This document shows positions 8,746 to 54,773 of a stretch of 64,000 nucleotides of DNA, one piece after another. Within the stretch, counting starts at the first letter, position 1; each line of letters starts with the position of its first letter. Position numbers and translations under genes: made by a program. Source of the stretch: Candidatus Falkowbacteria bacterium (GTDB lineage: Bacteria > Patescibacteriota > Patescibacteriia > Patescibacteriales > WJLG01); contig CAVVFV010000008.1 of NCBI GenBank assembly GCA_963747695.1, positions 11,592-75,591 of the forward strand, written 5' to 3'. The notes below the pieces were generated by a model, which was not told the origin of the DNA, made no database searches, and worked only from the letters and a program-made list of their open reading frames with translations.

Positions 8746-8759
8746 AAATATCGCTAAAC

Positions 8760-8876
8760 ATGATGCGAATACTACGAATTTTTCGCGAATACCGCGAACT
8801 ATTTATCGAATTAAGATGCGATAATTCGTTAAATCTATTTGTTGTATTCGCGAAGAATTCGTAGTATTCGCATCAT
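8760..8876. repeat. 117-nt palindromic element, CGAATAC-word family
   Basis: ATGATGCGAATACTACGAAT ... ATTCGTAGTATTCGCATCAT. It is near-identical in length and ends to 39030-39146. Confidence 0.9.
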
Positions 8877-8894
8877 GGCATAAAGATTATTTCT

Positions 8895-11252
8895 ATGGAC
8901 GACCAACAAAACGAATCATGGTTGGAAAAAAACAAAACTGTTTTTATCGTTTTGGGAATTTTTCTTATTTTGGCGATCGTCATCATCTTGATTTTTTTGG
9001 GCATGCGGCTGCTTAATGAATCAAAAACAAATATTTCCCAGCCGCCGGTTCCGGTTGCCACTTCTACCGTCACGGCGACGCCGGTTGTTTCCTCAACTGC
9101 GGCCTTGCCTACCTCCGGCGAAGCGGAACAGGCCGGCGCGGCCACCGGCACCGCCGCCTCCGAACAGCTGGCGGAGAAAGCCAGCTTCGGCGATTTTTAT
9201 CACCCGACGACTTCGACAATCATCTTAAAGCCGGCGAATTTCACCTTACCTTTCAATGTCAAAACCGCAGTCGCCAACTATTACGACGTTGATCGCAAAA
9301 TGAGCCTGGATAGCGGTTTGGACAGCTTGAATAACAATGGCTTTGCCGTGCTGGACAATCCTTTCAAGTCGGAAGCCGATGATTTTTTCCAGATGTATTC
9401 CTCGCTCGACGCCAAACAAGTGCCGACTTTGATCACCGGCGATTTCCTGATTTATTATTATCAGAATGTTTTGAAGCTGGCGTACCAGGAAGTGGAGAGT
9501 ACGATTTTTTACGATAATCTTTGGGCGGCGGATCAAAGATTGTATCAGATCGCCAAGCAAAGATACGAAGCTAACCTCAATCAAAAAGGAGCGGTGAACG
9601 AGGTGGCCTTGGAAGCATCACGGCTGGAAACGGCGTATTTCGCCACCGCCTTGAGTCTGTTGGCTCCGACCGATAATCAAATTTCTTCCGCTTCCGGATT
9701 GAGCGGCTCGAGTAATTTTACCACCGCCGAAGCTTCGCAATATTCTTTGCAGCTGCCGGCCTATCTCACCGACGATGTCGGAGCCGAGCTGGCGCTGATC
9801 CGCGCCGGCGCCGGCGTTGCCAAATCGCCGGTAATGCTGTACCAGCGCGATTATAAAAATTTCTCCGTGCCGACGGCTTTTCAGAGCAATGCCCGGCTAC
9901 GCAATTTTTATCTCGCTTCCCAGTGGCTCAATTCGGTTTTTCCGCTTGATTATCAGGGCGCGGCTTGTCCTAATTGTCTTCTCGACCGCGATGATTGGCG
10001 GATAAATTTTTCCGCGGCATTTCTCGTCTCCGCCGATCTGGCTTCGGATCAGAATTTGAAAAACGAATGGGCGAAGATTTATAAAATCCAATCATTTTTT
10101 TCCGGATTGCGCGGCGATTTGAATTATCTTGATTATGCTCAGGCTTTCAACGATGCTTTTCCCGGCCGTGCTGATATCACCGAGATTCTCCAAGGAGTAC
10201 CGGCCGATAATGACACAAACTTAGCGCTGTTGCAGAGTAAATTGGCGGCGATTGATTTTTCCGCTTTAACCGGCGGCTTAAGCAAGACTGCCACGACCAC
10301 TCAGCCGTTGCTGGGTTTCAAAATGCTGACGGATTCCTATTGGCCGGATGATTATATTTTCAGCCAGCTCGTTTACCCGGCGGTCGGAAAATTTTTGGGC
10401 ACGGATAAAGAGGCCCAGGCGGCAGTGACCGCTTGCTCATTACCCGGCCAGGTTGGGAACTATCGTTGCGTCGGTTCGGCGGATGACGTACTTAATCTGA
10501 TCTATCCGTTAAGTTCGAAAGGCGACGATTATTTCGCCAGTAACACCAACTATACTGACTATGGCCAGCAGGCGCTCAGTCTGCAAAAGATGCTCGGCGA
10601 TTTCAATGTCGATGCCTGGCACAGCAATTCTTATTGGACCAATTTGGACATCAGCAATAAATTTTTGCATGCTCCCGAATTGACCAAAGTCAACCTGATG
10701 AACAGCGTTGCCTGGCAGAATAAGAATCAGGCGGCGGCTCGAGCTGCCTGGGCGAACGAAGAATTGCCGGCCGATACTTTCGCGCCCTACAAAAGCCAGG
10801 ATGCGATCGGACTCAATCAAACCGGCGCGAGCAATCCGACCCCGCTGTATCAATATATCGAACCGGATCTGACTTTGTGCCGCGAGCTGGTTTTCGATTC
10901 ACAGATGGTTATCCAAATGCTCACCCTCCTCAATGTCGGCGACGGCGAAAATACCGTTCTGGCCGATTTGAAAACTATGGAAAAGAATTTGAGCGGCGCG
11001 GAAACGATTATGACCAAAGAATTGCAAGGCGAAGATTTAAGTGCGGCCGACAGCAGTTTCATCGACGACTTCAAACACGCTTTTTCCGTCACCAGCGAAG
11101 GGAGCAAAAGTTTCAGCTTAACGCCGGTCAGTAGCGGACACTCGCTTCAGGAAAACTTGTCCGGCGTCAAATTGCTGGTCTATTCATTCGTCCGCGGCGA
11201 TCAGAAATTCATGGCTGTCGGCCCTGTCTTCAATTTCACGGAAGAAAAATAA
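8895..11252 (+). CDS. Large membrane-anchored or secreted hypothetical protein (785 aa)
   Basis: N-terminal TM helix followed by a Pro/Ala/Thr linker. I recognise no motif with confidence; any DUF3160-like resemblance is only a guess. Confidence 0.6.
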   Translation: MDDQQNESWLEKNKTVFIVLGIFLILAIVIILIFLGMRLLNESKTNISQPPVPVATSTVTATPVVSSTAALPTSGEAEQAGAATGTAASEQLAEKASFGDFYHPTTSTIILKPANFTLPFNVKTAVANYYDVDRKMSLDSGLDSLNNNGFAVLDNPFKSEADDFFQMYSSLDAKQVPTLITGDFLIYYYQNVLKLAYQEVESTIFYDNLWAADQRLYQIAKQRYEANLNQKGAVNEVALEASRLETAYFATALSLLAPTDNQISSASGLSGSSNFTTAEASQYSLQLPAYLTDDVGAELALIRAGAGVAKSPVMLYQRDYKNFSVPTAFQSNARLRNFYLASQWLNSVFPLDYQGAACPNCLLDRDDWRINFSAAFLVSADLASDQNLKNEWAKIYKIQSFFSGLRGDLNYLDYAQAFNDAFPGRADITEILQGVPADNDTNLALLQSKLAAIDFSALTGGLSKTATTTQPLLGFKMLTDSYWPDDYIFSQLVYPAVGKFLGTDKEAQAAVTACSLPGQVGNYRCVGSADDVLNLIYPLSSKGDDYFASNTNYTDYGQQALSLQKMLGDFNVDAWHSNSYWTNLDISNKFLHAPELTKVNLMNSVAWQNKNQAAARAAWANEELPADTFAPYKSQDAIGLNQTGASNPTPLYQYIEPDLTLCRELVFDSQMVIQMLTLLNVGDGENTVLADLKTMEKNLSGAETIMTKELQGEDLSAADSSFIDDFKHAFSVTSEGSKSFSLTPVSSGHSLQENLSGVKLLVYSFVRGDQKFMAVGPVFNFTEEK

Positions 11253-13283: not shown

Positions 13284-14513
13284 TTTATGATATATTTCGA
13301 CCACAGCGCCACGACTCCGGCGGATAAGAAAGTCTTAAAAGCGATGGAGCCGTATTGGCGGGAAATTTTTGGCAATCCGTCTTCGATCCATGCATATGGG
13401 CAGCAGGCGGTTTTGGGCGTGGATCAGGCCCGGGCTAAAGCGGCCAAATTTTTCGGCTGCGAGAACGAGGAAATCATCTTCACTTCCGGCGCCACTGAGG
13501 CTAATAATCTGGCTTTGCGCGGGGTCATCAAGGCGTTAAAGGGCGAAGTTGCCAAGCCGCACATCATCACTTCCAAAGTCGAACATGACGCGATTATCGA
13601 ACCGTGCCGCGATCTCGAGCAGGAAGGGGTTGAAGTTACTTATTTGCCGGTTGATAAAACTGGAAGAATAAATCCGGAAGACGTGAAAAAGGCGATTAAG
13701 GAAAATACGGTCTTAGTTTCCATTATGGATGTGAATAGCGAGGTCGGCATCCGCGAGCCGATCCGCGAGATCGGCAAGCTGATCGAGAAAATCAATGAAG
13801 GAAGAATGAACGAGTGGCAGCGGACCGGGGCGGCCAAGAAATTGCCCAAGCCGCGGACGATTTATTTTCATACCGATGCCACGCAAGCGGTGAATTTTTT
13901 CGATTGCAACGTCGATAAGCTTCATGTTGACTTACTCTCAATGTCGGCGCATAAAATCTACGGACCCAAAGGCGTAGGACTTTTGTATATCAGAAAAGGC
14001 GTGTCAATCGCGCCGATTCAGCTGGGCGGTCATCATGAACGGAATATCCGTTCCGGAACCTTGAATGTCACCGGCATCGTCGGTCTGGGTGAAGCTTTGG
14101 CTTTAATCACTGAGACCGATCAGGAAAAAAATAATAAAAAAATAGCGGTCTTGCGCGATCGCCTGGTCGAGGGAGTAATAAAAAATATTCCCGATGTGGT
14201 TTTGAATACCGACCGCCCCAATGCGACTCCGGCCCATGCTCATTTTACGCTTCGTGGCGCGGAAGGTGAATCAGTCTTGATCTCACTTGATTTCGAAGGC
14301 ATAGCCGTGTCCACCGGTTCGGCTTGCGCTTCGAACAGTTTGAAATCATCGGAAGTTTTGGAGGCAATGGGCGTCTGTGAGGAAGATTCTCATTATTCGA
14401 TCCGCTTTACTCTGGGCAAGGATAATACCCGCGAAGAAGTTGATAAAGTCGTTAAAATTTTACCCGGGATAATTAAGAAGCTTAGAGAGATGAACCCGAT
14501 TTACGGAAAATAA
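13281..14513 (+). CDS. nifS: Cysteine desulfurase (NifS/IscS type)
   Basis: SAHKIYGPKG (PLP lysine) and TGSACAS (active-site Cys). The start may be the ATG at 13287. Confidence 0.9.
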   Translation: MFMIYFDHSATTPADKKVLKAMEPYWREIFGNPSSIHAYGQQAVLGVDQARAKAAKFFGCENEEIIFTSGATEANNLALRGVIKALKGEVAKPHIITSKVEHDAIIEPCRDLEQEGVEVTYLPVDKTGRINPEDVKKAIKENTVLVSIMDVNSEVGIREPIREIGKLIEKINEGRMNEWQRTGAAKKLPKPRTIYFHTDATQAVNFFDCNVDKLHVDLLSMSAHKIYGPKGVGLLYIRKGVSIAPIQLGGHHERNIRSGTLNVTGIVGLGEALALITETDQEKNNKKIAVLRDRLVEGVIKNIPDVVLNTDRPNATPAHAHFTLRGAEGESVLISLDFEGIAVSTGSACASNSLKSSEVLEAMGVCEEDSHYSIRFTLGKDNTREEVDKVVKILPGIIKKLREMNPIYGK

Positions 14514-14962
14514 CCAATATCAAATAACCAATATTTAAAAAAATAAAAAATATTAAAATAATTTAAAGCATGATTTATGATCTGGAGGGGAGAACTAAAT
14601 CATTTAGCAGTAATGTGCTGAATTTTTTGCAAGCCGTGCCGCGAAATGATTTTACCAGAAACATTATTTTACAATTGATCAGGTCGGCAACAAGTATTGG
14701 CGCAAATTATCATGAGGCGAATGGCGGCTGTTATAGGAAGGAATTTAAAAATAGAATTTCCATCTGCTTGAGAGAAACAAAAGAAACTAAATATTGGATA
14801 GAATTATTGGCTAAATGCAGGGGTGTTGAATTGGCGGCGTTAAGAAAATTGTGGAAAGAGGCTGCTGAATTTTCTCTAATTTTTGGCTAGATATATTCAA
14901 GTTTATAATATTAAAATATTTAGATATTTTTTTAAGTATTGGTTATTTGATATTGGATATTT
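14514..14962. repeat. Composite palindromic cassette (CCAATAT-word arms) enclosing a four-helix-bundle ORF
   Basis: Left arm CCAATATCAAATAACCAATATTTAAAAAAATA... (14514-14568) pairs with right arm ...TAAGTATTGGTTATTTGATATTGGATATTT (14901-14962). The cassette fills the nifS stop to GT4 start spacer exactly. Confidence 0.8.
14570..14890 (+). CDS. Four helix bundle protein (23S rRNA IVS protein / Avd-like family)
   Basis: RSATSIGANYHEANG and KETKYWIELL motifs. Length is 106 aa. Confidence 0.8.
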   Translation: MIYDLEGRTKSFSSNVLNFLQAVPRNDFTRNIILQLIRSATSIGANYHEANGGCYRKEFKNRISICLRETKETKYWIELLAKCRGVELAALRKLWKEAAEFSLIFG

Positions 14963-32941: not shown

Positions 32942-32988
32942 TTCAGGAATTAATTTAATTAATATAGTCGGGAATAGACCCTCCCCGT

Positions 32989-33025
32989 CAGGCCGAGGCG
33001 GCCTGCCACCCCTCCCGAGGAGGGG
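32989..33025. repeat. Stand-alone GC-rich twin hairpin
   Basis: CAGGCCG-AGG-CGGCCTG followed by CCCCTCC-CGA-GGAGGGG. The same design forms the cores inside the elements at 36531, 48799, 53133 and 54294. Confidence 0.8.
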
Positions 33026-33032
33026 ACGAAAA

Positions 33033-33962: not shown

Positions 33963-33977
33963 ATAAATTTAGCGGCA

Positions 33978-34065
33978 AATATCCAATATCAAATAACTAA
34001 TATCAAAAAAATATTAAAATATTTAATTATTTTTTAAAATATTGGTTATTTGATCTTGGATATTT
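33978..34065. repeat. Intercistronic palindrome, CCAATAT-word family, 'empty'
   Basis: AAATATCCAATATCAAATAACTAATATC... pairs with ...ATATTGGTTATTTGATCTTGGATATTT. It lies between the gmd stop and the fcl start. Confidence 0.85.
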
Positions 34066-35103
34066 TTAACCGCCGGCACTTTCTTGCTTTAAATCCTTGA
34101 CACACATCTCCTTGATCAACTCGGTGAAAGATACTTGCGGTGCCCAGCCTAATTTGGTTTTGGCTTTGGTCGGGTCGCCGAGGAGGATGTCGACTTCGGT
34201 CGGGCGGAAATATTTAGGATCAATTTCGATAATTATTTTACCGGTTTTTTTATCCAGGCCTTTTTCGTTGACGCCTTGGCCTTGCCAGACAAGCTGGATG
34301 TCGAAGTGAGCGGCGGCTTTCTCGGCGAATTCGCGGACCGTGTGGGTTTCGCCGGTCGCCAAAAGATAATCATCCGGCGCTTCGGCTTGGAGCATTAGCC
34401 ACATACCGCGGACATAATCTTGGGCATGGCCCCAGTCGCGCTGGGCGTCGAGATTGCCCAAAAATAATTTTTGTTCTTTGCCTAATTTGATCCGGGCGAG
34501 TCCCCGAGTGATTTTGCGGGTGACGAAAGTTTCGCCGCGGCGGGGAGATTCATGATTGAATAAGATCCCGTTGACGGCAAACATATTGTAAGCCTCACGG
34601 TAATTTCTGGTGATCCAGTAAGCGAAAACTTTGGCTACTCCGTAAGGCGAGCGGGGATAGAAAGGCGAGGTTTCTTTGAGGGGAATTTCCGCGGCCTTGC
34701 CGAACATCTCGCTGGAAGAAGCTTGATAAAATTTGGTCTTAATCCTGGACTCGCGGATGGCATCAAGCAAGCGCAAGGCGCCGAGGCCGGTGACATCGGC
34801 GGTGTATTCCGGCATATCGAAAGAAACGCGGACATGGCTTTGCGCGCCCAGGTTATAAATTTCATCCGGCTGGATTTTCTCCAGCAGGCGGCTCAAGTTG
34901 CTCGAATCGGAAAGATCGCCGAAATGCAAGAATAATTTGACGCCATTGATGTGCGGATCAGTATAAAGATGGTCGATGCGGCCGGTATTGAAAGTGCTGG
35001 CGCGGCGGATCAAACCGTGGACTTCATACCCCTTTTCCAATAATAACTCCGCCAAATAGGAGCCGTCTTGTCCGGTAATGCCGGTGATCAGTGCCTTTTT
35101 CAT
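34066..35103 (-). CDS. gmd: GDP-mannose 4,6-dehydratase
   Basis: [23 protein letters not shown] and [10 protein letters not shown] motifs. Confidence 0.92.
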
Positions 35104-35107
35104 AATT

Positions 35108-35157
35108 TGATGCGAATGCCGCGAATTAGTCGCGAATGCCGCGAAAATCGCGAATAA
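35108..35157. repeat. Solo arm (half element) of the CGAATGC/ATTCGC family
   Basis: TGATGCGAATGCCGCGAATTAGTCGCGAATGCCGCGAAAATCGCGAATAA lies 4 nt upstream of the gmd start in gene orientation. Confidence 0.65.
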
Positions 35158-35165
35158 TATTTATT

Positions 35166-36530: not shown

Positions 36531-36678
36531 ATAATACGAATACTACGAATTTTATGCGAATACTACGAACACTGCGAACCGAATAACACACCCTGTCCGC
36601 GAGGCGCGGACACCCCTCTCGAGAGGGGAATAAAAATAGTTCGCGGTATTCGCGAAGAATTCGCGGTATTCGTATCAT
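36531..36678. repeat. Nested palindromic element: CGAATAC arms plus a GC-rich twin-hairpin core
   Basis: Arms ATAATACGAATACTACGAA... and ...TTCGCGGTATTCGTATCAT. The core at 36595-36628 is GTCCGCG-AGG-CGCGGAC plus CCCCTCTCGAGAGGGG. Confidence 0.85.
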
Positions 36679-36758
36679 GTCATGTAATACTTAAATTAGC
36701 AGAAAAAATCGCGAAAAGCAAGCTTGCCTAAACAAGGCGGGAATGATAAGATTTAGGC

Positions 36759-38998: not shown

Positions 38999-39029
38999 TG
39001 GAGGAATAAGAAAATTAATAAGTTCGCAC

Positions 39030-39146
39030 ATGATGCGAATACTACAAATTTTACGCGAATACTACAAACAGATTTCACGAATTTACTTTTAATAATTCGA
39101 TAAATAGTTCGCGGTATTCGCGAAGAATTCGTAGTATTCGCATCAT
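39030..39146. repeat. 117-nt palindromic element, CGAATAC-word family
   Basis: ATGATGCGAATACTACAAAT ... ATTCGTAGTATTCGCATCAT. It is a close copy of 8760-8876. Confidence 0.9.
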
Positions 39147-39182
39147 GATTTCAACTTTAGATTAAATTAAAATAACAATATT

Positions 39183-42799: not shown

Positions 42800-43855
42800 A
42801 TGGATATTAAGAAAATACAAGAAATATTGAAGGATGAGCCGAAATTCAGGATCAAGCAGGTCTATGAGGCGGTTTTTGCCAAATTCATCGATAATTGGGA
42901 TGAGGCGACCAATCTGCCTTTCAGCTTGCGGGAGAAGTTGAAAGCCGAAGCGCCGCTCGAAATCAAAGCGGATATTTTGGTGGCGTCCGATAAAAGTACT
43001 GTTAAAGCGGCGCTTGACTTCGGCGACGGCAAGATTGAAACAGTCTTGATCCGCCATGGCGAAGGCCGGAATACGGTTTGCGTTTCTTCGCAGATCGGTT
43101 GCCTGTTAGGCTGCGAATTCTGTCTGACCGGAGCTTGCGGCTTCACTCGCAGCCTGAATTTTTATGAAATCGTCGAACAGGTTTTGTTTTTTTCCCGCTA
43201 TCTTCGCTCCCCCTTCGCTAAGGCTACGGGGGACAAGCAAGAGGGGAATGAGAGGGTTTCCAATGTTGTTTTTATGGGCATGGGCGAGCCATTATTGAAC
43301 TATGATGAAGTGATGAAGGCCGTCAGATTTTTTAATGACGAAGAGACTTTCAACATCGGGGCGCGGAAGATTTCCATCTCCACGGTGGGGATCATCGATG
43401 GCATCAAGAAATTAGCCAATGAGCCGTTGCAAATAAATTTAGCTTTATCGCTGCACGCGCCGGACGATGAATTACGCCAGCAAATAATGCCGGTCGCCAA
43501 AAATAATCCGTTGAAAAGCTTGCTTAAGGCCGTGAAAAGTTACATTACTAAAACCAACCGCAAAGTGATGATCGAATATTTAATGCTCGATAAAGTCAAT
43601 GATTCTTCGGCTCAAGCGCAGAAATTAGCCGATTTGCTCAAAGTTCATCTGGGCCGATTGTTCATGGTTAATTTGATCTCTTATAATGAAACGCAAAAAT
43701 ACCGAACTTCGCCGCCCGCGGTGATCAATAATTTTAGAAAAATTCTGGAGCGGGAGGGCATCGAGACTTCGCAGCGTTTTAAGTTCGGCCGCGACGTGCA
43801 GGCCGCTTGCGGACAACTGGCCGGCGGCAAAGAAAAAAGAAAAGATAAAAGATAA
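42800..43855 (+). CDS. rlmN: 23S rRNA/tRNA adenine-C2 methyltransferase RlmN (radical SAM)
   Basis: GCLLGCEFC (CxxxCxxC), VVFMGMGEPL and a C-terminal Cys. Confidence 0.9.
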   Translation: MDIKKIQEILKDEPKFRIKQVYEAVFAKFIDNWDEATNLPFSLREKLKAEAPLEIKADILVASDKSTVKAALDFGDGKIETVLIRHGEGRNTVCVSSQIGCLLGCEFCLTGACGFTRSLNFYEIVEQVLFFSRYLRSPFAKATGDKQEGNERVSNVVFMGMGEPLLNYDEVMKAVRFFNDEETFNIGARKISISTVGIIDGIKKLANEPLQINLALSLHAPDDELRQQIMPVAKNNPLKSLLKAVKSYITKTNRKVMIEYLMLDKVNDSSAQAQKLADLLKVHLGRLFMVNLISYNETQKYRTSPPAVINNFRKILEREGIETSQRFKFGRDVQAACGQLAGGKEKRKDKR

Positions 43856-45367: not shown

Positions 45368-45370
45368 AAA

Positions 45371-45541
45371 ATAATATCCAATAAAAAATAACCAATATCA
45401 TAAAAAATAATCAATAACCAATAACCAATATTTTTAAAAAATATTATAATAATTAAATATCTAAAATCTTGGCTGGTTATTTTAATTATTAAAATATTAA
45501 ATTATTTTTTAAAATATTTGTTATTTGATATTGGATATTAA
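45371..45541. repeat. Palindromic element, CCAATAT-word family (long)
   Basis: AATAATATCCAATAAAAAATAACCAATATC... pairs with ...TTGTTATTTGATATTGGATATTAAT. Confidence 0.8.
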
Positions 45542-45547
45542 TGATTT

Positions 45548-46438
45548 ATGGATCTTTCGGTCATCATCGTTTCCTGGAATGTCAAAGAGAAACTGAATAA
45601 ATGCCTGACGCATCTTGGTTTGAGCCAGACGAATTTTTCTTTTGAAGTTATCGTCGTTGATAACGGATCGCATGACGGTTCGGCCGAGATGGTGCGGGAT
45701 GAATTCGCTCAAGTCAAATTGATCGCCAACCATGGCAATCTGGGCTTCGCGCGCGCGGTCAATCAGGCTTTCCGGGAAAGCACGGGCGATTTCATTTTTT
45801 TACTCAACCCGGATAATTTTGTTTTTCCTTTGACGCTTGATAATCTGCTGCATTGGCTCCTCGCCAATCGTAAAGCCGCGATCGCCGGCTGCCGCTTGGT
45901 CGACCGGGAGAACAAAGATCTCAAGGGTCAGGTGCGAAGATTCCCCGGGATATTCAATCAGCTGGTGGTGGTCTTGAAGTGGCCTTATCTGTTTCCTAGA
46001 ATTTTGGATCGCTATCTTTGCGTCGGATTTGATTACGACCGGCCGGCCATCGTCGACAGCGTTCGCGGCAGCGCGATGATCATCCGCCGGGCGAAACTGG
46101 AGCAGGCTTTGTCTTATGAGCGGTGGCAGCGAGGAGAAATGCTTGATGAAAGATTTTTTGTTTGGTTTGAAGATGTCGATCTTTGCCGCACTTTCAAAGC
46201 GGCGGAGCTGGAAGTATGGTATACGCCGGCCGCCCGCTGTTTCGACCTGGTTGGGCAAAGCTTCTCGCAAATTCCCCGCCTCACGGCGCAAAAATATTTC
46301 CGCGATTCAATGTTGAAATATTTCAAGAAATGGAAACCCGCCTGGCAATATTGGATTTTGTGGCTGGTCTGGCCGGCGGGGATTACTTTGACGTTTATTT
46401 TCACGGCGCTAGGTTTTGAGAAGAAAGACAATAGCTGA
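45548..46438 (+). CDS. Glycosyltransferase family 2
   Basis: SVIIVSWN, VVDNGSHDGS, NLGFARA and FEDVDLC motifs. Confidence 0.8.
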   Translation: MDLSVIIVSWNVKEKLNKCLTHLGLSQTNFSFEVIVVDNGSHDGSAEMVRDEFAQVKLIANHGNLGFARAVNQAFRESTGDFIFLLNPDNFVFPLTLDNLLHWLLANRKAAIAGCRLVDRENKDLKGQVRRFPGIFNQLVVVLKWPYLFPRILDRYLCVGFDYDRPAIVDSVRGSAMIIRRAKLEQALSYERWQRGEMLDERFFVWFEDVDLCRTFKAAELEVWYTPAARCFDLVGQSFSQIPRLTAQKYFRDSMLKYFKKWKPAWQYWILWLVWPAGITLTFIFTALGFEKKDNS

Positions 46439-46443
46439 TTTTT

Positions 46444-46541
46444 AATATTAAATATCAAATAATTAATATCCAAAAAATAATATAATATTTTAATATTAAA
46501 ATATTTTTTTGAATATTGGATATTTGATATTGGATATTTTT
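46444..46541. repeat. Palindromic element, CCAATAT-word family
   Basis: AATATTAAATATCAAATAATTAATATCC... pairs with ...GAATATTGGATATTTGATATTGGATATTTT. Confidence 0.8.
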
Positions 46542-46552
46542 AAATTAATTAA

Positions 46553-47617
46553 ATGTCCAAAAAGGTCGGAATTATTTTAGTAAATTATAAAGATTACGCG
46601 CAGCGTTTCCTCGCCGATTGCCGCGATTCTTTGCGCGCGCAAAATTATTCGCGAGAAGAGTTTACGGTTTATCTCGTCGATAATGCTTCGAGCGATGAAT
46701 CGGAAAAATATCTCAAAGAAAATTATCCGGAAGCGACAATCGTTTCCCGGCCAGATGGGAATTATTCCGCGGCCAATAATGCCGGCATAAAGGCGGCAAC
46801 GTCCGACGGCGCGGAAGTTTTCGTCATTGCCAATATGGATATGGCCTTTGAAAAAAATTGGCTGACTGAGCTGATCAACGCGCTAGAGAGTGATGATAAA
46901 ATCGGCATCGCTCAGTCGAAAATTTTGCTTTACTCTCAAGGCAACGAAACTAAAAAAATAAATACTCTCGGCAATGCGATTAATTTTTTAGGTTTTGGTT
47001 TTACCACCGGCTACCAAGAAGCTGATCGGGAAATCGTCGGCCTGCCAGAGATCAGAGGCTATGCTTCGGGCAGCTCGTTCGCTGTCAAAAAAGCAGTATT
47101 GGACAAGATCGGCGGCTACAACGAAGAGTATTATATGTATCATGATGATCTGGAAATGGGCTGGAAAGCCAAGCTGGCGGGATATAAAATAGTCTTAGCT
47201 CCGAAATCCGTCTGTTATCACAAATATGAATTTTCCCGCAGCATCAAGATGGTTTATTATATGGAGCGCAACCGCCTGATCACCATTTTTTCTTTCTATG
47301 AATTGACTTCAATACTCGCGATACTTCCCGCCTTGATTATTATGGAATTGGGCCAATTGTTTTTTGCTTTAATCAAAGGCTGGTTGCCGGAAAAATTGCG
47401 GGCCGACGAATATTTTTTGCACGCCGAAAATTGGGACAAAATTATGGCCGCAAGAAAGCAGGTTAAGAATTTCCGCGCCAAAAAAGATCGCGAGATCGTC
47501 GATGATTTTTCCGGAGAAATCTTGTTCCAGGAAATCGACAACCCAATTCTTAAATATCTTGCCAACCCTTTCTTCAAGTGGTATTGGAATTTGGCCAAGA
47601 GAGCGATTAAGGGATAA
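46553..47617 (+). CDS. Glycosyltransferase family 2
   Basis: GIILVNY, LVDNASSD, NNAG and HDDLEMG motifs. Confidence 0.8.
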   Translation: MSKKVGIILVNYKDYAQRFLADCRDSLRAQNYSREEFTVYLVDNASSDESEKYLKENYPEATIVSRPDGNYSAANNAGIKAATSDGAEVFVIANMDMAFEKNWLTELINALESDDKIGIAQSKILLYSQGNETKKINTLGNAINFLGFGFTTGYQEADREIVGLPEIRGYASGSSFAVKKAVLDKIGGYNEEYYMYHDDLEMGWKAKLAGYKIVLAPKSVCYHKYEFSRSIKMVYYMERNRLITIFSFYELTSILAILPALIIMELGQLFFALIKGWLPEKLRADEYFLHAENWDKIMAARKQVKNFRAKKDREIVDDFSGEILFQEIDNPILKYLANPFFKWYWNLAKRAIKG

Positions 47618-47846: not shown

Positions 47847-47891
47847 AGGTTTGACTAAAATAAACCCAGGAAGTATGCTTGAAACATCATT

Positions 47892-47984
47892 ATTAATATC
47901 CAATATCAAATAACCAATAATTTAAAAAATAATAAAATATTTAAATATTGAATTATTTTTTTGATATTGGTTATTGGATATTCA
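47892..47984. repeat. Palindromic element, CCAATAT-word family
   Basis: ATTAATATCCAATATCAAATAACCAATAAT... pairs with ...TTGATATTGGTTATTGGATATTCAG. Confidence 0.8.
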
Positions 47985-47990
47985 GATAAC

Positions 47991-48770
47991 ATGGACGTCT
48001 CCGTCATCATCGTCAATTATCAAAGCCAGGATAAAGTCCTAAAATGCCTCGACGCTCTGTTGGACGCGGATTGGGGAGATTTGCAGTACGAAATAATCGT
48101 CGTCGATAATAATTCCGGCGATGACCTGACGCGTGTTAAGGAGATTTTTCCGGAAGTGAAAATCATCCAGAGCGAGAAAAATCTGGGCATGGGCGGCGGC
48201 AACAATCTGGGCGCCAAGAATTCCACGGGAAAATATATTTTGATTTTAAATCCTGATACCGCGGTTAAAGCTGATGCGATCCTTAAGCTTTATCAACACT
48301 TGCGGGAAAATCAAACGGCCGGAATCGTCGGGCCGAAACTTTTAAATCCGGACGGCAGCTTGCAATATTCCTGTCTGCGCTTTCCGAAAATCTATACGCC
48401 GATTTTGCGCCGGACATTTTTCGGCGAATTGGCGCCGCAACACCTGAATGATTTTTTAATGAAAGATTTTGATCACTCGGCGATCAAGAGCGTCGACTGG
48501 CTGATGGGTTCCTGCTTCCTGATCCGCCGCGAAATCATGGAAAAAGACGGCCATATTTTCGATGAGAAATATTTTATGTATTTTGAGGATACCGATCTTT
48601 GTCGGCGGATGAAGGAAAAACATAATTATGAAGTTGTTTATCATCCGGAAGCGGTCGTAATTCATGATCATGCTCGGGCGAGTGCGGATCAGCCCTGGTT
48701 TGTCGCGCCGTTCGTCGATCCGCTCGCGAGAGAACATATCAAATCATGGCTGAGATATTTCATCGGTTAA
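47991..48770 (+). CDS. Glycosyltransferase family 2
   Basis: I prefer the ATG at 47991 (MDVSVIIVNY) because the track's TTG lies inside the repeat. Motifs are VVDNNSGD, NLGMGGG and FEDTDLC. Confidence 0.8.
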   Translation: MDVSVIIVNYQSQDKVLKCLDALLDADWGDLQYEIIVVDNNSGDDLTRVKEIFPEVKIIQSEKNLGMGGGNNLGAKNSTGKYILILNPDTAVKADAILKLYQHLRENQTAGIVGPKLLNPDGSLQYSCLRFPKIYTPILRRTFFGELAPQHLNDFLMKDFDHSAIKSVDWLMGSCFLIRREIMEKDGHIFDEKYFMYFEDTDLCRRMKEKHNYEVVYHPEAVVIHDHARASADQPWFVAPFVDPLAREHIKSWLRYFIG

Positions 48771-48798
48771 ATTATTCAAAGATAAAAGGCGTGCGTAT

Positions 48799-48931
48799 AT
48801 CATACGAATACTACGAATAACCCACCCCGCCACCGCGGCGGTGGCACCCCTCCCAAGAGGGGAATCGCGAATACCGCAAACTCCGCGAACCAAATTAAAA
48901 TTTGTTAAATTATTCGTTGTATTCGCATCAT
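48799..48931. repeat. Rearranged CGAATAC-family element with a GC twin-hairpin core
   Basis: ATCATACGAATACTACGAATAA, then the core at 48829-48862 (GCCACCG-CGG-CGGTGGC plus CCCCTC-CCAA-GAGGGG), then ...GTTGTATTCGCATCAT. Confidence 0.8.
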
Positions 48932-48939
48932 GTAATTTT

Positions 48940-49818
48940 ATGCAAAAAATCACCAAAGCTATTCTGCCGATCGCCGGCGCCGGGACGCGTTTCTTGCCGG
49001 CTACCAAAGCCCAGCCCAAGGAAATGCTGCCGGTGGTCGATAAGCCCGCCGTGCAATACTTGGTGGAAGACGCGGCTAAAGCCGGGATCAAAGAAATAAT
49101 TTTCGTCACCGGCCGCGGTAAACGGGCGATCGAGGATCATTTTGATTATTCGTTCGAATTGGAACAGCTGCTGTTGAAAAAAAATAAACCGGAACTTTTG
49201 GAAAAAGTCCGGCAGATGGAAAACCTGGCCAAATTCTCTTATGTCCGCCAACCGATGCCGTTAGGCGATGGCCACGCCATTTCCTGCGCCGCTCATCTCT
49301 TAGGTAATGAGGCGGCGGTGGTAATGTTCGGCGATACGCTTTATGATTCTCTCGTGCCGGTCAGCCGGCAGGTGATGGATGTTTACGAAAAGTACGGCGT
49401 TCCCGTAGTTGGTTTGGCCGAAGTGGCGCCGGAAGAATTCAATAAATTCGGCATGTACGGCGGGCAAGACTTGGGCGACGGAGTGATCAAGATTGAAAAA
49501 GTGATTGAAAAACCGGCTCGGCCGGCGGATTCGCCTTCAAATTTGGCGGCGCCGGGAGTTTACGTCATCACGCCGGACATTATGAAAATTTTGCAGGAAA
49601 TGAAGACGGGTAAAAGCGGGGAAATCAGATTGTTAGACGCGTTCGAAATAATGCTGGAAAGAAAGATGCCGATCTATGGAAAAAAGCTGGAGGGTGAATG
49701 GCTGGACACGGGGAATAAGTTCAATTTTTTGAAAGCTTCGATAAAGTTCGGTCTGAAGGACGGGGAGATCAAGGGGCAGTTAAAAAAATTCCTCAAAGAT
49801 CTTGCTGATACTTTATAA
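48940..49818 (+). CDS. galU: UTP--glucose-1-phosphate uridylyltransferase
   Basis: I prefer the ATG at 48940. The motif is AILPIAGAGTRFLPATKAQPKEMLPVVDKP. Confidence 0.9.
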   Translation: MQKITKAILPIAGAGTRFLPATKAQPKEMLPVVDKPAVQYLVEDAAKAGIKEIIFVTGRGKRAIEDHFDYSFELEQLLLKKNKPELLEKVRQMENLAKFSYVRQPMPLGDGHAISCAAHLLGNEAAVVMFGDTLYDSLVPVSRQVMDVYEKYGVPVVGLAEVAPEEFNKFGMYGGQDLGDGVIKIEKVIEKPARPADSPSNLAAPGVYVITPDIMKILQEMKTGKSGEIRLLDAFEIMLERKMPIYGKKLEGEWLDTGNKFNFLKASIKFGLKDGEIKGQLKKFLKDLADTL

Positions 49819-53132: not shown

Positions 53133-53280
53133 ATAATGCGAATACAACGAATTGTACGCGAATACTACGAACCCGCTAACCGAATAACACACCCCGTCCG
53201 CGAGGCGCGGCCACCCCTCTCGAGAGGGGAATTAAAAATGGTTCGCGGTATTCGCGCATAATTCGTAGTATTCGCATCAT
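53133..53280. repeat. Nested palindromic element: CGAATAC arms plus a GC twin-hairpin core
   Basis: It is collinear with 36531-36678. The core at 53196-53229 is GTCCGCG-AGG-CGCGGCC plus CCCCTCTCGAGAGGGG. Confidence 0.85.
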
Positions 53281-53284
53281 ATTA

Positions 53285-53295
53285 TGTGCTATAAT
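53285..53295 (+). promoter_or_regulatory. Extended -10 promoter TGTGCTATAAT, probable leaderless tatD transcript
   Basis: The -10 box ends 7 nt before the tatD ATG at 53303. Confidence 0.5.
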
Positions 53296-53302
53296 AAAAT
53301 GC

Positions 53303-54293: not shown

Positions 54294-54477
54294 TGATGCT
54301 AATCCGCAAATGAGCGCGAATGCCGCGAAAACCGCGAATAACACACCCCGTCAAGCCGAGGCGGCTTGCCACCCCTCTCCCACGCATCGCTTCGCTTTGC
54401 GGGGCAAGCGAGAAGGGAATTATTTAATTATTCGCATTTTTCGCGGCATTCGCGACTTTTTCGCAGCATTCGCATCA
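54294..54477. repeat. Nested palindromic element in the groES 5' leader (CGAATGC arms, GC core, extra insert)
   Basis: Arms TGATGCTAATCCGCAAATGAGCGCGAATGCCGCGAAAACCGCGAATAA and TTATTCGCATTTTTCGCGGCATTCGCGACTTTTTCGCAGCATTCGCATCA. Core is CAAGCCG-AGG-CGGCTTG (54352-54368) plus CCCCTCTC-[30 nt]-GAGAAGGG (54372-54417). Confidence 0.85.
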
Positions 54478-54485
54478 GAATTTTT

Positions 54486-54773
54486 ATGACAATTAAACCT
54501 CTTCACGACAATGTGGTCATTAAACCGGTGGTCGCGGAAAAGACCACCAAAGCCGGAATCGTTTTACCGGACACGGTCGATAAAGGCAAACCCGAGCAGG
54601 GCACGGTAATGGCGGTCGGTACGGGAAAAATTTTGGACAACGGCCAGCTGGCCAGGATGTCGGTCAAGGTCGGGGATAAAGTGATGTTCAAAAAATACGC
54701 CGCGGACGAGATCGAAATCGGCGGCGAGAAAATGATTTTAATTTCCGAGTCGGATATTTTAGCAATATTATAA
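54486..54773 (+). CDS. groES: Co-chaperonin GroES
   Basis: I prefer the ATG at 54486 (MTIKPLHDNVVIKPV...). The track's extension reads through the repeat. Confidence 0.92.
   Translation: MTIKPLHDNVVIKPVVAEKTTKAGIVLPDTVDKGKPEQGTVMAVGTGKILDNGQLARMSVKVGDKVMFKKYAADEIEIGGEKMILISESDILAIL

What the first reader, a model, noticed from the sequence alone, without database searches (positions are those of the whole stretch)
43207..43249. Possible in-frame insertion of a mini hairpin element inside the rlmN coding sequence
The rlmN segment CTCCCCCTTCGCTAAGGCTACGGGGGACAAGCAAGAGGGGAAT encodes ...SPFAKATGDKQEGN... It lies in the variable linker between EIVEQV and the conserved NVVFMGMGEPL.

This segment shares CTTCGCT...GGGG(A)CAAGC(A/G)AGA(G/A)GGGAAT with the extra insert in the groES-leader element (54387-54420, TCGCTTCGCTTTGCGGGGCAAGCGAGAAGGGAAT). 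It also shares AAGAGGGGAAT with the core at 48853-48865. It can form a TCCCCC/GGGGGA hairpin.

From my recollection of E. coli and Bacillus RlmN, this linker is about 6-10 residues longer here. A repeat-derived insertion kept in frame in an essential radical-SAM enzyme would show that the elements invade coding DNA as well.
Basis: partly seen in the sequence, partly recalled or inferred. Interest (0 to 1): 0.6.

Follow-up and report, generated by a model that had tools for sequence, protein, structure and literature searches.

The report
Hairpin repeat inserted inside rlmN gene
A short GC-rich, hairpin-forming stretch adds 11 amino acids to a floppy surface loop of the rRNA/tRNA methyltransferase RlmN in this Patescibacteria (CPR) genome. 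Related genomes carry whole copies of an intergenic repeat at the same codon, so this is a small REP/RPE-like repeat that entered a gene without breaking it, a known kind of event not previously reported for this phylum in the papers I searched.

Summary
The sequence, its translation (SPFAKATGDKQEGN), its place in the RlmN linker and the TCCCCC/GGGGGA hairpin are all as described. The segment is a lineage-specific in-frame indel. Of 56 close RlmN relatives, 37 have a 24-residue baseline linker (…YLKKYNERVSN…), including the nearest ones (87-88% protein identity; 80-82% DNA identity for the two whose DNA was read). The window is net +11 codons.

The window alone gives only moderate evidence of repeat origin. 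The 3' end CAAGAGGGGAAT matches a core terminus 12/12. The 22-nt 3' half matches only the groES-leader copy across 1.9 Mb of held sequence. P is about 0.003 against the five cores, but the whole-window test is not significant. The hairpin is no more stable than shuffles, and a covariance model of canonical hairpin 2 does not hit it.

Relatives settle the question. Complete two-hairpin cores sit in frame at the same codon of rlmN in three relatives, and other hairpin types occupy the site in five more. Cores also sit in frame in GT2, UvrC-like and UvrD-like genes. Inserted DNA is more conserved than flanking synonymous sites, while the peptides change frame.

Verdict: a diverged, tolerated copy of a clade-specific REP/RPE-like hairpin repeat in the α1-β2 surface loop. 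New member of a known kind.

The parts
42800..43855 (+). rlmN coding sequence (351 aa), the host gene. The radical-SAM Cys motif and both catalytic Cys residues are intact.
   Evidence: ORF. Top homologues are named RlmN. PDB RlmN/Cfr hits at E 1e-61 to 1e-68. Invariant C94, C101, C105, C108 and nearly invariant (>=90%) C337. Model matches 6fz6, 5hr7 and 3rfa with TM 0.81-0.84.
43205..43249 (+). Inserted GC-rich segment, CGC + S137-N150. It replaces AAA AAA TAT of the empty site, for a net +33 nt / +11 codons.
   Evidence: Empty sites in the nearest relatives L161 and L162. 37/56 relatives have the short linker. Pairwise indels at 43208-43240. GC 0.61-0.67, against 0.465 for the window.
43238..43249 (+). 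3' terminus CAAGAGGGGAAT, identical to the 3' end of the intergenic core (hairpin-2 3' arm + AAT). Read as Q-E-G-N.
   Evidence: 12/12 with 48854-48865. Same sequence, frame and junction as the L080 and L090 rlmN inserts.
43228..43249 (+). 22-nt 3' half GGGGGACAAGCAAGAGGGGAAT, shared with the loop-expanded core of the groES leader.
   Evidence: 18/22 with 54399-54420. This is the only match at 4 or fewer mismatches in 1.9 Mb, and it is reciprocal.
43208..43233 (+). Hairpin: arms TCCCCC (43208-43213) and GGGGGA (43228-43233), 14-nt interior.
   Evidence: MFE fold -16.7 kcal/mol, z = -0.69 versus shuffles. The hairpin is present but not exceptional.
43205..43213 (+). Possible 5' box remnant, CGCTCCCCC. 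Compare CCCTCCCCG in core 32977 and in the L080 rlmN insert.
   Evidence: 7/9 by eye. Weak evidence, not tested statistically.
54340..54420 (+). Intergenic core upstream of groES, with a 30-nt extra segment nested in the hairpin-2 loop. Closest relative of the rlmN insert.
   Evidence: groES starts at 54487.
48819..48865 (+). Canonical intergenic two-hairpin core.
   Evidence: family D10; z = -3.4; 35.3 bits.
53186..53232 (+). Canonical intergenic two-hairpin core.
   Evidence: 42 bits.
36585..36631 (+). Canonical intergenic two-hairpin core.
   Evidence: 37.3 bits.
32977..33028 (+). Intergenic two-hairpin core, lying between two minus-strand genes.
   Evidence: 31.7 bits.

Best explanation
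The segment is a diverged copy of a clade-specific family of about 45-nt GC-rich two-hairpin repeats. The family's layout is:
- a 5' box, CACCCC(G);
- a sequence-variable hairpin 1, often with a CGTC foot;
- hairpin 2, CCCCTC/GAGGGG;
- a 3' AAT.

In this genome and its relatives the family normally lies in A/T-rich intergenic spacers.

Proposed history (inferred): in the recent ancestry of this genome a copy, probably of the loop-expanded subtype seen upstream of groES, entered the A-rich codons AAA AAA TAT|AAT of rlmN. Its length kept the reading frame.

Consequence for the protein (shown by alignment and model): the segment is translated as 11 extra residues of a disordered loop between helix α1 and strand β2 of the radical-SAM barrel. 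By the standard geometry of TIM-like barrels, this loop is on the face opposite the Fe-S/SAM site (inferred). The enzyme therefore tolerates it.

The insert most likely has no function of its own. It persists as selfish or neutral DNA, and any constraint acts on the nucleotide hairpin rather than the peptide.

How copies are made is not shown. Candidates are a trans-acting hairpin-recognising transposase as for REPs, gene conversion from other copies, or an RNA-mediated route.
For: Derived indel:
- 37/56 relatives are short, including the sister P0007.
- empty sites in L161 and L162 at 80-82% DNA identity.

Same site filled by complete cores in relatives:
- L090: ACC CAC CCC GTC CGG TCA GGG ACC GTC CAC CCC TCC CGA GAG GGG AAT.
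- L080 and L001/L087 likewise.
- Other hairpin types fill the site in L159, L095, L158, L157 and L160.

The family is real and clade-restricted:
- The covariance model R1 hits only the window and in-group loci (L001, L002, L011, L080, L083, L084, L086, L087, L090, L157) among 160 loci totalling 1.86 Mb.
- Hairpin 1 has 16 different sequences in 19 copies, and all fold. Mean MFE is -6.8, against -4.4 +/- 0.46 for shuffles, with 0/500 shuffles as good.

Copies in other genes, in frame, in both orientations and in two frames.

Nucleotide conservation rather than peptide conservation:
- L001 versus L090 cores: 45/49 identical, while flanking third positions are 42% identical. A -1/+1 indel pair changes the peptide completely.
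- Type C hairpin in L159 versus L095: 32/33 identical, against 60% at flanking third positions.
- L158 versus L159 differ by two compensatory double changes in the stem.

Window-specific link.

Surface loop.
Against: - Within the window only about 20 nt at the 3' end match the family convincingly.
- The middle 25 nt have no counterpart except a loose resemblance to the groES-leader extra segment.
- Model R1 finds no hit at E <= 10. It also misses the groES-leader copy, so this test cannot see loop-expanded variants.
- The whole-window similarity score is not significant.
- The hairpin is not more stable than shuffles.
- No clean target-site duplication could be defined.
- No transposase was found in the window or loci.
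- Mobility is inferred from distribution, not observed.
Confidence: 0.75

Rival explanations
1. The loop grew locally and is unrelated to the dispersed repeat. The α1-β2 loop is unconstrained, and it lengthened through slippage, small duplications or template-switch events that create GC-rich hairpins de novo. The GAGGGGAAT end resembles the cores by chance or by shared mutational bias.
For: - The whole-window similarity is not significant.
- Only the ends match, and model R1 gives no hit.
- The hairpin is no better than shuffles.
- The same loop carries many unrelated-looking inserts of 2-31 residues in relatives, as expected of a permissive loop.
Against: - The 12/12 terminal identity falls exactly at the junction, and in the same frame, where relatives carry complete cores.
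- P = 0.0035 against the cores, and 0/1420 natural GC-matched 45-mers score as high.
- The 22-mer match is unique and reciprocal in 1.9 Mb.
- Complete cores at this site in L090, L080 and L001 cannot have arisen locally, because near-identical cores lie in intergenic spacers and in other genes.
Confidence: 0.15
2. The insert is kept because it does something. It could act as a peptide, for example a new interaction surface on RlmN. It could act as an mRNA or DNA hairpin inside the gene, for example a translational pause, an RNase site or a protein-binding site.
For: - Hairpin stems are maintained by compensatory changes inside coding DNA (L158 versus L159).
- Inserted DNA is more conserved than neighbouring synonymous sites.
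- The same site is used repeatedly.
Against: - The nearest relatives do without the insert.
- Peptides differ completely between copies and are read in different frames, so there is no peptide constraint.
- The window's own hairpin is weak (z = -0.69).
- The loop is predicted to be disordered.
- High conservation is equally explained by recent insertion from a conserved source.
Confidence: 0.08
3. The segment is an assembly or binning artefact: a chimeric join or misassembled repeat within the metagenome-assembled genome.
For: The source is a MAG, and repeats are places where assemblers make errors.
Against: - The identical protein is on record from three sources on a 331,635-bp contig (P0001).
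- The frame is intact, and both flanks are collinear with orthologues.
- Independent samples show analogous in-frame inserts at the same codon.
Confidence: 0.02

Closest known systems
CGTC-tagged REPs and intragenic REPs (Di Nocera et al. 2013, PMC3733652)
   Same: - Short GC-rich stem-loop repeats, mostly intergenic, with some copies in frame inside known genes.
- That paper reports many intragenic copies in repair genes (uvrA/B/C/D, recB) and REPs at about the same site of recB in two Xanthomonas species.
- Here 11 of 19 cores carry CGTC at the 5' foot of hairpin 1. In-frame copies occur in UvrC-like and UvrD-like genes, and a site in rlmN is reused.
- As for CGTC REPs, no dedicated transposase is evident.
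   Different: - The host is a different phylum. Patescibacteria is not among the phyla that paper lists in the part I read.
- The unit is a fixed pair of hairpins with conserved CACCCC boxes and a GAGGGGAAT end.
- Hairpin 1 is hypervariable between copies.
- Copies nest inside each other's loops.
- The window's rlmN copy itself has no CGTC.
Rickettsia palindromic elements (RPE; summarised in PMC10969869, and in PMC3733652 for RPE-4/6)
   Same: - Palindromic repeats that insert in frame into unrelated housekeeping genes.
- They add peptides compatible with the protein fold.
- They occur in small, reduced genomes.
   Different: - RPEs are described as about 150 bp (PMC10969869). The unit here is about 45 nt.
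- No sequence relationship was tested or is expected.
- RPE peptides are conserved within a family. Here the same core is read in two frames and in both orientations.
Mobile GC clusters of yeast mitochondria (GC42, PMC4478555), double-hairpin elements of Allomyces mitochondrial DNA (cited in that paper) and sponge mitochondrial hairpin elements (PMC2800124)
   Same: - Hairpin-forming GC-rich units about 40-60 nt long, dispersed in A/T-rich spacers.
- Stems are more conserved than loops.
- Clusters merge and nest.
- No encoded transposase, and the mobilisation mechanism is unresolved.
   Different: - Those elements are organellar, not bacterial.
- GC42 has a defined AG target. No target duplication could be defined here.
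- The host genome here is only moderately A/T-rich (46.5% GC).
Bacterial MITEs that fuse with ORFs (for example Coxiella QMITEs, PMC5896051; review PMC10969869)
   Same: Non-autonomous small repeats that occasionally create in-frame fusions or insertions in genes.
   Different: MITEs have terminal inverted repeats and target-site duplications derived from a parent IS. Neither feature was found here.

Membership tests
Two-hairpin GC-rich core family of this clade (defined here) | 3' terminus: hairpin-2 3' arm GAGGGG followed by AAT | tested here: met
   43238-43249 CAAGAGGGGAAT is 12/12 identical to 48854-48865. The same end occurs in the L090, L001 and L080 inserts.
Two-hairpin GC-rich core family of this clade (defined here) | Canonical hairpin 2 (CCACCCCTC - 4-6 nt loop - GAGGGG), as captured by covariance model R1 | tested here: not met
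   No R1 hit at 43200-43250 at E <= 10 with filters off. The groES-leader copy (54340-54420), which has a 30-nt loop insert, is also missed, so the model cannot see loop-expanded variants.
Two-hairpin GC-rich core family of this clade (defined here) | 5' box C[A/T]CCCC(G) followed by a variable hairpin 1 | tested here: inconclusive
   CGCTCCCCC (43205-43213) is 7/9 to the CCCTCCCCG variant. A hairpin follows, but not in the canonical register.
Two-hairpin GC-rich core family of this clade (defined here) | Overall sequence similarity to family members above a composition-matched background | tested here: met
   Best score 25 versus 15.5 +/- 2.4 (P = 0.0035); 0/1420 natural GC-matched 45-mers reach it. 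The whole-window best-hit test is not significant.
Two-hairpin GC-rich core family of this clade (defined here) | Occupies a site where undoubted family members insert | tested here: met
   Complete cores sit at the same rlmN codon, junction and frame in L090, L080 and L001/L087.
CGTC-tagged REP superfamily (PMC3733652) | CGTC tetranucleotide at one end of a short palindrome | tested here: not met
   There is no CGTC or GACG in 43205-43249. The family at large has CGTC in 11/19 copies, so the family may belong to this superfamily even though this copy does not show the tag.
CGTC-tagged REP superfamily (PMC3733652) | Multi-copy, mostly intergenic stem-loop of 20-40 nt | tested here: met
   Five intergenic cores lie in 64 kb, and more in relatives. 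Hairpin 1 is 11-21 nt and the whole unit about 45 nt.
GTAG REPs / REPtrons | GTAG head and an associated RAYT (IS200-like Y1 transposase) gene | tested here: inconclusive
   No GTAG head is present. Only 64 kb of this genome was available.
Rickettsia palindromic elements (RPE) | Sequence membership in RPE families 1-10 and a length of about 150 bp | not tested
   No RPE consensus was available in the tools. Length (45 nt) and host differ, so the claim is 'works like an RPE', not 'is an RPE'.
Rickettsia palindromic elements (RPE) | In-frame insertion at a position compatible with the protein fold (surface) | tested here: met
   The insert lies in a loop between helix 121-134 and strand 155-158, with pLDDT 55 in a model of mean 88.8. 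Catalytic Cys residues are conserved.
MITE | Terminal inverted repeats plus target-site duplication | tested here: inconclusive
   Filled and empty sites were compared for rlmN and GT2. Flanks are A/T-rich (…AAAA| and |AAT…), but no consistent duplication or terminal inverted repeat could be defined.
Rfam RNA families | Match to any curated RNA family at the gathering score | tested here: not met
   0 matches in the whole window.

The most novel reading that the evidence does not exclude
These about 45-nt two-hairpin units may be an active, clade-specific mobile element of Patescibacteria with several unusual habits:
- It repeatedly targets the same A/T-rich codons in permissive loops of housekeeping genes (rlmN, GT2, uvrC, a uvrD-like gene).
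- It nests in the loops of its own hairpins.
- It is conserved as a nucleic-acid structure while its peptide is free to change frame.
- It has no recognisable transposase.

Together these would point to an undescribed mobilisation route, such as hairpin-directed insertion, gene conversion 'homing' between alleles, or an RNA intermediate. They would also point to an unrecognised source of protein-loop variation in CPR bacteria.
Probability: 0.3. Interest if true: 0.7.

Novelty: new member of a known kind. Interest (0 to 1): 0.5.

Why it matters
If correct, small hairpin repeats of the REP/RPE kind also colonise protein-coding genes in the tiny genomes of CPR/Patescibacteria. This bears on three practical points:
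- It explains odd GC-rich, Pro/Gly/Ser-rich peptide islands (HPSQEGN, PPLSRGEL, SPQGETGG…) that interrupt otherwise conserved CPR proteins and can confuse alignments, domain calls and phylogenies.
- The reuse of one codon position in rlmN by at least three different hairpin types, with filled and empty alleles interleaved to the tips of the tree, gives a tractable natural system for asking how transposase-less hairpin repeats move.
- The contrast between conserved nucleotides and free peptides gives a clean case of selection, or recent copying, acting on DNA/RNA structure inside a reading frame.

For RlmN itself the finding is probably of no functional consequence.

Tried and rejected
1. Rfam scan of the whole window at gathering thresholds: no family. 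The cores are not a curated RNA.

2. Whole-window Smith-Waterman search with the 45-nt insert: best score 25, against a null best of 23.5 +/- 1.8. Not significant on its own, so I changed to a family-restricted test and a 22-mer uniqueness test.

3. Hairpin stability: z = -0.69. I do not use the hairpin as evidence.

4. Covariance model of hairpin 2 (R1): it recovers canonical cores but misses both the rlmN segment and the groES-leader copy. It is therefore uninformative for loop-expanded variants. A full-core model was abandoned because MAFFT put the variable hairpin 1 out of register.

5. Target-site duplication: filled and empty comparisons for rlmN and GT2 gave A/T-rich flanks but no consistent duplication.

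6. Transposase: a tblastn with an IS200 TnpA sequence recalled from memory gave no hit. This is a weak negative, because only 64 kb of the genome was seen and the query was from memory.

7. 'Separate mini element' reading: rejected in favour of a copy of a loop-expanded core, because the shared GAGRGGGAAT is the core's own terminus.

8. Ancestral long linker, suggested by E. coli AAKVTGQ aligning with FAKATGD: rejected because the 37 short-linker relatives and the outgroups lack these residues.

9. Scan of other window genes for window-specific inserts against syntenic loci: only rlmN gave a GC-rich hairpin insert. The PPIase differences are in a low-complexity N-terminal linker.

10. Literature searches for such elements in CPR/Patescibacteria found nothing in the library that was searched.
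Full report
OBSERVATION

Window 43207-43249 reads CTCCCCCTTCGCTAAGGCTACGGGGGACAAGCAAGAGGGGAAT. It lies in a 351-codon ORF, 42800-43855 on the + strand, and encodes S137-N150 (SPFAKATGDKQEGN) between EIVEQV and NVVFMGMGEPL.

The ORF is RlmN:
- Its best database relatives are named 23S rRNA (adenine2503-C2)-methyltransferase, from Patescibacteria/CPR metagenome-assembled genomes.
- It matches solved RlmN and Cfr chains at E 1e-61 to 1e-68.
- The radical-SAM cysteines and both catalytic cysteines are conserved: C94, C101, C105 and C108 are invariant, and C337 is nearly invariant.

- CAAGAGGGGAAT equals 48854-48865 (12/12).
- GGGACAAGCAAGAGGGGAAT matches 54401-54420 at 17/20.
- TCCCCC (43208-43213) pairs with GGGGGA (43228-43233) in the minimum-free-energy fold.

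IS THE SIMILARITY MORE THAN CHANCE?

The answer is mixed.

Against:
- A local alignment of the 45-nt insert against the whole window gives a best score of 25. Dinucleotide shuffles give a best of 23.5 +/- 1.8, although the top-ranked windows are the repeat cores.
- The hairpin is not more stable than shuffles (z = -0.69).

For:
- Restricted to the five intergenic cores, the score of 25 stands against 15.5 +/- 2.4 (P = 0.0035).
- None of 1420 natural GC-matched 45-mers of the window reaches it.
- The 22-nt 3' half has a single match at 4 or fewer mismatches in 1.9 Mb of window plus fetched loci. That match is the groES-leader copy, and it is reciprocal.

So the window alone gives a moderate, 3'-end-limited link to the repeat.

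THE REPEAT FAMILY

The window holds five intergenic GC-rich 'cores', all on the + strand: 32977-33028, 36585-36631, 48819-48865, 53186-53232 and 54340-54420.

Each core has four parts:
- a 5' box, [A/C]C[A/C]CACCCCG;
- hairpin 1;
- hairpin 2, (C)CACCCTC…GAGGGG in outline (CCCCTC/GAGGGG arms);
- a 3' AAT.

Hairpin 1 is structurally conserved but variable in sequence. There are 16 different sequences in 19 copies from the window and its relatives, and all fold. Mean MFE is -6.8 kcal/mol, against -4.4 +/- 0.46 for shuffles, with 0/500 shuffles as good. Examples of compensatory differences are GTCAGGCC…GGCCTGC versus GTCAAGCC…GGCTTGC.

Eleven of the 19 copies carry CGTC at the 5' foot of hairpin 1.

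The groES-leader copy has 30 extra nucleotides nested in the loop of hairpin 2. A copy in relative L002 has both loops expanded.

A covariance model of hairpin 2 (R1) finds the family only in the window and in ten loci: L001, L002, L011, L080, L083, L084, L086, L087, L090 and L157. Their RlmN is at least 65% identical to the window's. The search covered 160 loci totalling 1.86 Mb. Rfam has no match.

THE ORTHOLOGUE TEST

In an alignment of 56 close RlmN relatives, 37 have a 24-residue stretch, EQVLFFARYLKKYNERVSNIVFMG. These include P0007, P0008 and P0010 at 87-88% protein identity.

The two nearest relatives whose DNA I read are L161 (P0007, 82% DNA identity) and L162 (P0010, 80%). Both have the empty site CTT AAA AAA TAT AAC GAA. 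The window instead has CTT CGC TCC CCC … GAG GGG AAT GAG. The net difference is 33 nt, or 11 codons.

More distant CPR lineages are also short, and a neighbour-joining tree puts long and short forms side by side down to the tips. The window's segment is therefore a derived, recent, in-frame insertion.

Compared with solved structures, the linker is 7 residues longer than in E. coli RlmN and 11 longer than in 6fz6. E. coli's AAKVTGQ aligns with FAKATGD. Given the distribution just described, I take this to be a chance match.

WHAT FILLS THE SITE IN RELATIVES

Nineteen of the 56 relatives carry 2-31 extra residues at this exact position. The DNA of the ones I could read shows what they are.

Complete cores in frame:
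- L090: AAA ACC CAC CCC GTC CGG TCA GGG ACC GTC CAC CCC TCC CGA GAG GGG AAT.
- L080: …ACC CTC CCC GGC CGC GGC GGC CAC CCC TCC CAA GAG GGG ACG.
- L001/L087: the L090-type core shifted by a -1/+1 indel pair, so it is read as KPTPSGQGPSTPPGEGN instead of THPVRSGTVHPSREGN.

Other hairpin types:
- L159, L095, L158 and L157 carry another hairpin, CGCCGCAGTCCGCAGGGCGAGACTGGCGGCG. L158 differs from it by two compensatory double substitutions in the stem.
- L157 additionally carries a third type, AACCACCCCTAACCCCTCCTTCGAAAGGAGGGGAAAT, nested beside it.

All share the right-hand junction immediately before the GAR codon of ERVSN. The window, L001, L090, L157 and L158 end in GGGGAAT in the same frame.

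THE INSERTED DNA IS MORE CONSERVED THAN ITS SURROUNDINGS
- L001 versus L090 cores are 45/49 identical, where flanking third codon positions are 42% identical.
- L159 versus L095 hairpins are 32/33 identical, against 60% at flanking third positions.

Together with the frame change, this shows that the nucleotide sequence or structure is conserved, or was recently copied. The peptide is not.

OTHER GENES

In relatives, cores lie in frame in several other genes:
- A GT2 glycosyltransferase, at one recurrent site. L157, L083 and L086 are filled. The window (46985-47074), L100 and L160 are empty.
- A UvrC-like ORF of L002, twice and in two different frames.
- A UvrD-like ORF of L002, in antisense orientation.

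RlmN itself has further sites:
- After 'DF' in L085, L086 and L161, a TCCGCC…GGCGGA hairpin.
- After RHGD in P0015.

In the window, a comparison with syntenic loci found no other gene with such an insert.

WHERE THE INSERT SITS IN THE PROTEIN

An AlphaFold2 model built from the 56-sequence alignment has mean pLDDT 88.8 and pTM 0.88. It matches 6fz6, 5hr7 and 3rfa at TM 0.81-0.84.

The insert lies between helix 121-134 (α1, directly after the CX3CX2C loop) and strand 155-158 (β2). Residues 141-150 are the least confident internal block (pLDDT 55).

By the standard geometry of radical-SAM partial TIM barrels, an α-to-β loop lies at the N-terminal end of the strands, opposite the cluster/SAM face. 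This is my inference from established knowledge. I could not measure distances.

MOST LIKELY EXPLANATION (about 0.75)

The segment is a diverged copy of this clade-specific hairpin repeat. It is most like the loop-expanded subtype upstream of groES. It entered the A-rich codons AAA AAA TAT|AAT of rlmN recently, kept the frame, and is tolerated as a disordered surface loop.

Shown:
- the indel and its recency;
- identity of the 3' terminus;
- occupation of the same site by complete cores in relatives;
- the loop location.

Inferred:
- that the window's copy derives from the family, since its middle part is unmatched and model R1 does not hit it;
- that it is neutral;
- that copies arise by some form of mobility.

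Not established: the mechanism of spread. No target duplication could be defined, and no IS200/RAYT-like gene was seen in the little sequence available.

RIVALS
- De novo local growth of a permissive loop (about 0.15). The weak whole-window statistics favour it. The terminal identity at the shared junction and the uniqueness of the 22-mer argue against it.
- A functional peptide or RNA/DNA hairpin (about 0.08). Compensatory stem changes and high nucleotide conservation favour it. Insert-free nearest relatives and frame-shifting peptides argue against it.
- An assembly artefact (about 0.02). The identical protein on record from three sources, and analogous inserts in independent samples, argue against it.

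COMPARISON WITH WHAT IS KNOWN

In-frame colonisation of genes by small palindromic repeats is known.
- Rickettsia RPEs: about 150 bp, with dozens of in-frame insertions (review PMC10969869).
- Di Nocera et al. 2013 (PMC3733652) described GTAG- and CGTC-tagged REPs in many bacteria. They noted that R. conorii RPEs end in CGTC. They found intragenic REPs, many in replication and repair genes (uvrA/B/C/D, recB), sometimes at about the same site in two species. They found no dedicated transposase for CGTC repeats.
- The family here fits that picture: the CGTC foot in 11/19 copies, UvrC/UvrD-like hosts and site reuse. It lies in a phylum not covered there, and my searches found nothing on it for CPR.
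- In form it is also close to the 42-nt mobile GC clusters of yeast mitochondria and to other organellar hairpin elements (PMC4478555, PMC2800124). Those likewise merge and nest, and they lack a known mobilisation mechanism.

I therefore file it as working like an intragenic REP/RPE, and as a new member of that kind, not as a member of any named family. The window's own copy fails the CGTC test and the canonical hairpin-2 test.

VERDICT
- Observation: partly confirmed. Everything described is present, but the statistical support is moderate and limited to the 3' end.
- Corrections: the net insert is 11 codons, the copy is atypical, RlmN is not known to be essential, and the event is not unprecedented.
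- Interest: 0.5. The event is ordinary in kind, but it is a clear and apparently undescribed case in CPR, with a reusable insertion hot spot worth following up.

Noticed in passing
window about 304-432, 8750-8895, 35107-35160, 36531-36697, 39022-39165, 48791-48949, 53133-53299, 54300-54497: Long CGAAT-rich palindromic elements (ATGATGCGAATACTACGAATT … TTCGTAGTATTCGCATCAT) lie in spacers just upstream of genes. The GC-rich cores sit at the centre of only some copies, so the cores appear to be secondary occupants of these palindromes. What the palindromes do (promoter or operator arrays?) was not examined.
   Followed up: partly
window 14504-14564, 33973-34095, 45368-45570, 46438-46569, 47889-48013: A second, AT-rich palindromic repeat family (AATATCCAATATCAAATAACCAATA… and its complement) lies in other intergenic spacers.
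   Followed up: no
window 32977-33028, 36585-36631, 43205-43249, 48819-48865, 53186-53232, 54340-54420: All five cores and the rlmN insert are on the + strand, whatever the direction of the neighbouring genes. GC skew is positive over almost the whole window. This may reflect a replication-strand bias. In relative L157 the core in the orthologous Bac_transf/holB spacer is on the opposite strand (L157 2825-2850, minus).
   Followed up: partly
L085:10199-10324, L086:358-483, L161:1410-2465 (P0007), L084:9121-10182, P0015: RlmN of relatives has further in-frame GC-rich hairpin inserts at other sites. After 'DF' in the N-terminal domain there is a TCCGCC…GGCGGA hairpin, giving SSAEVSREGGAMS, AASAEATGEGGMG or SSSAVARGEGGGD. 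P0015 has an insert after RHGD. L084 has a 20-residue insert. The window's sister P0007 lacks the linker insert but carries the 'DF' one.
   Followed up: partly
L157:14320-14463, L083:5540-5707, L086:3500-3622; empty in window 46985-47074, L100:13872-13961, L160:15985-16074: A second insertion hot spot lies in a GT2 glycosyltransferase. One, two to three tandem, or type-B cores sit in frame at the same loop (THPGLRPPLSRGEL; THPVRQPTPSARRGHPSQEGKRPPLPRGE; TTTPKPLLGKKGG).
   Followed up: yes
L002:14801-16291 (-) and L002:17426-20497 (+): A UvrC-like ORF carries two cores read in two different frames (THPVPSTGHPSQEGN and HTPRPEYGPPLSRGEL). A UvrD-like helicase ORF carries a core in antisense orientation (ITPLLGGVPEGRGGLLEV). 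This echoes the published enrichment of intragenic REPs in repair genes (PMC3733652). The gene identities were judged by eye from motifs and were not searched.
   Followed up: partly
L002:6284-6332 (-): A core with extra sequence in the loops of both hairpins. Like window 54340-54420 and the L157 rlmN insert, it shows that the units accumulate nested insertions in their own loops.
   Followed up: partly
L158:440-496 versus L159:1567-1611: Inside the coding sequence, the stem CGCCGC/GCGGCG of one relative is CGTCAC/GTGACG in another. These are two compensatory double substitutions that change RR…GG to RH…GD while keeping a perfect stem.
   Followed up: yes
window 43217-43237 versus E. coli RlmN residues about 152-158: E. 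coli's loop AAKVTGQ aligns with the window's FAKATGD (4 of 7 identical).
   Followed up: partly
P0097 (RlmN relative at 53% identity, outgroup): An outgroup RlmN also has an 8-residue insert at this site (NNETLRQAQGEN). Its DNA was not fetched, so the loop may be a target for unrelated hairpin repeats in other CPR lineages too.
   Followed up: no
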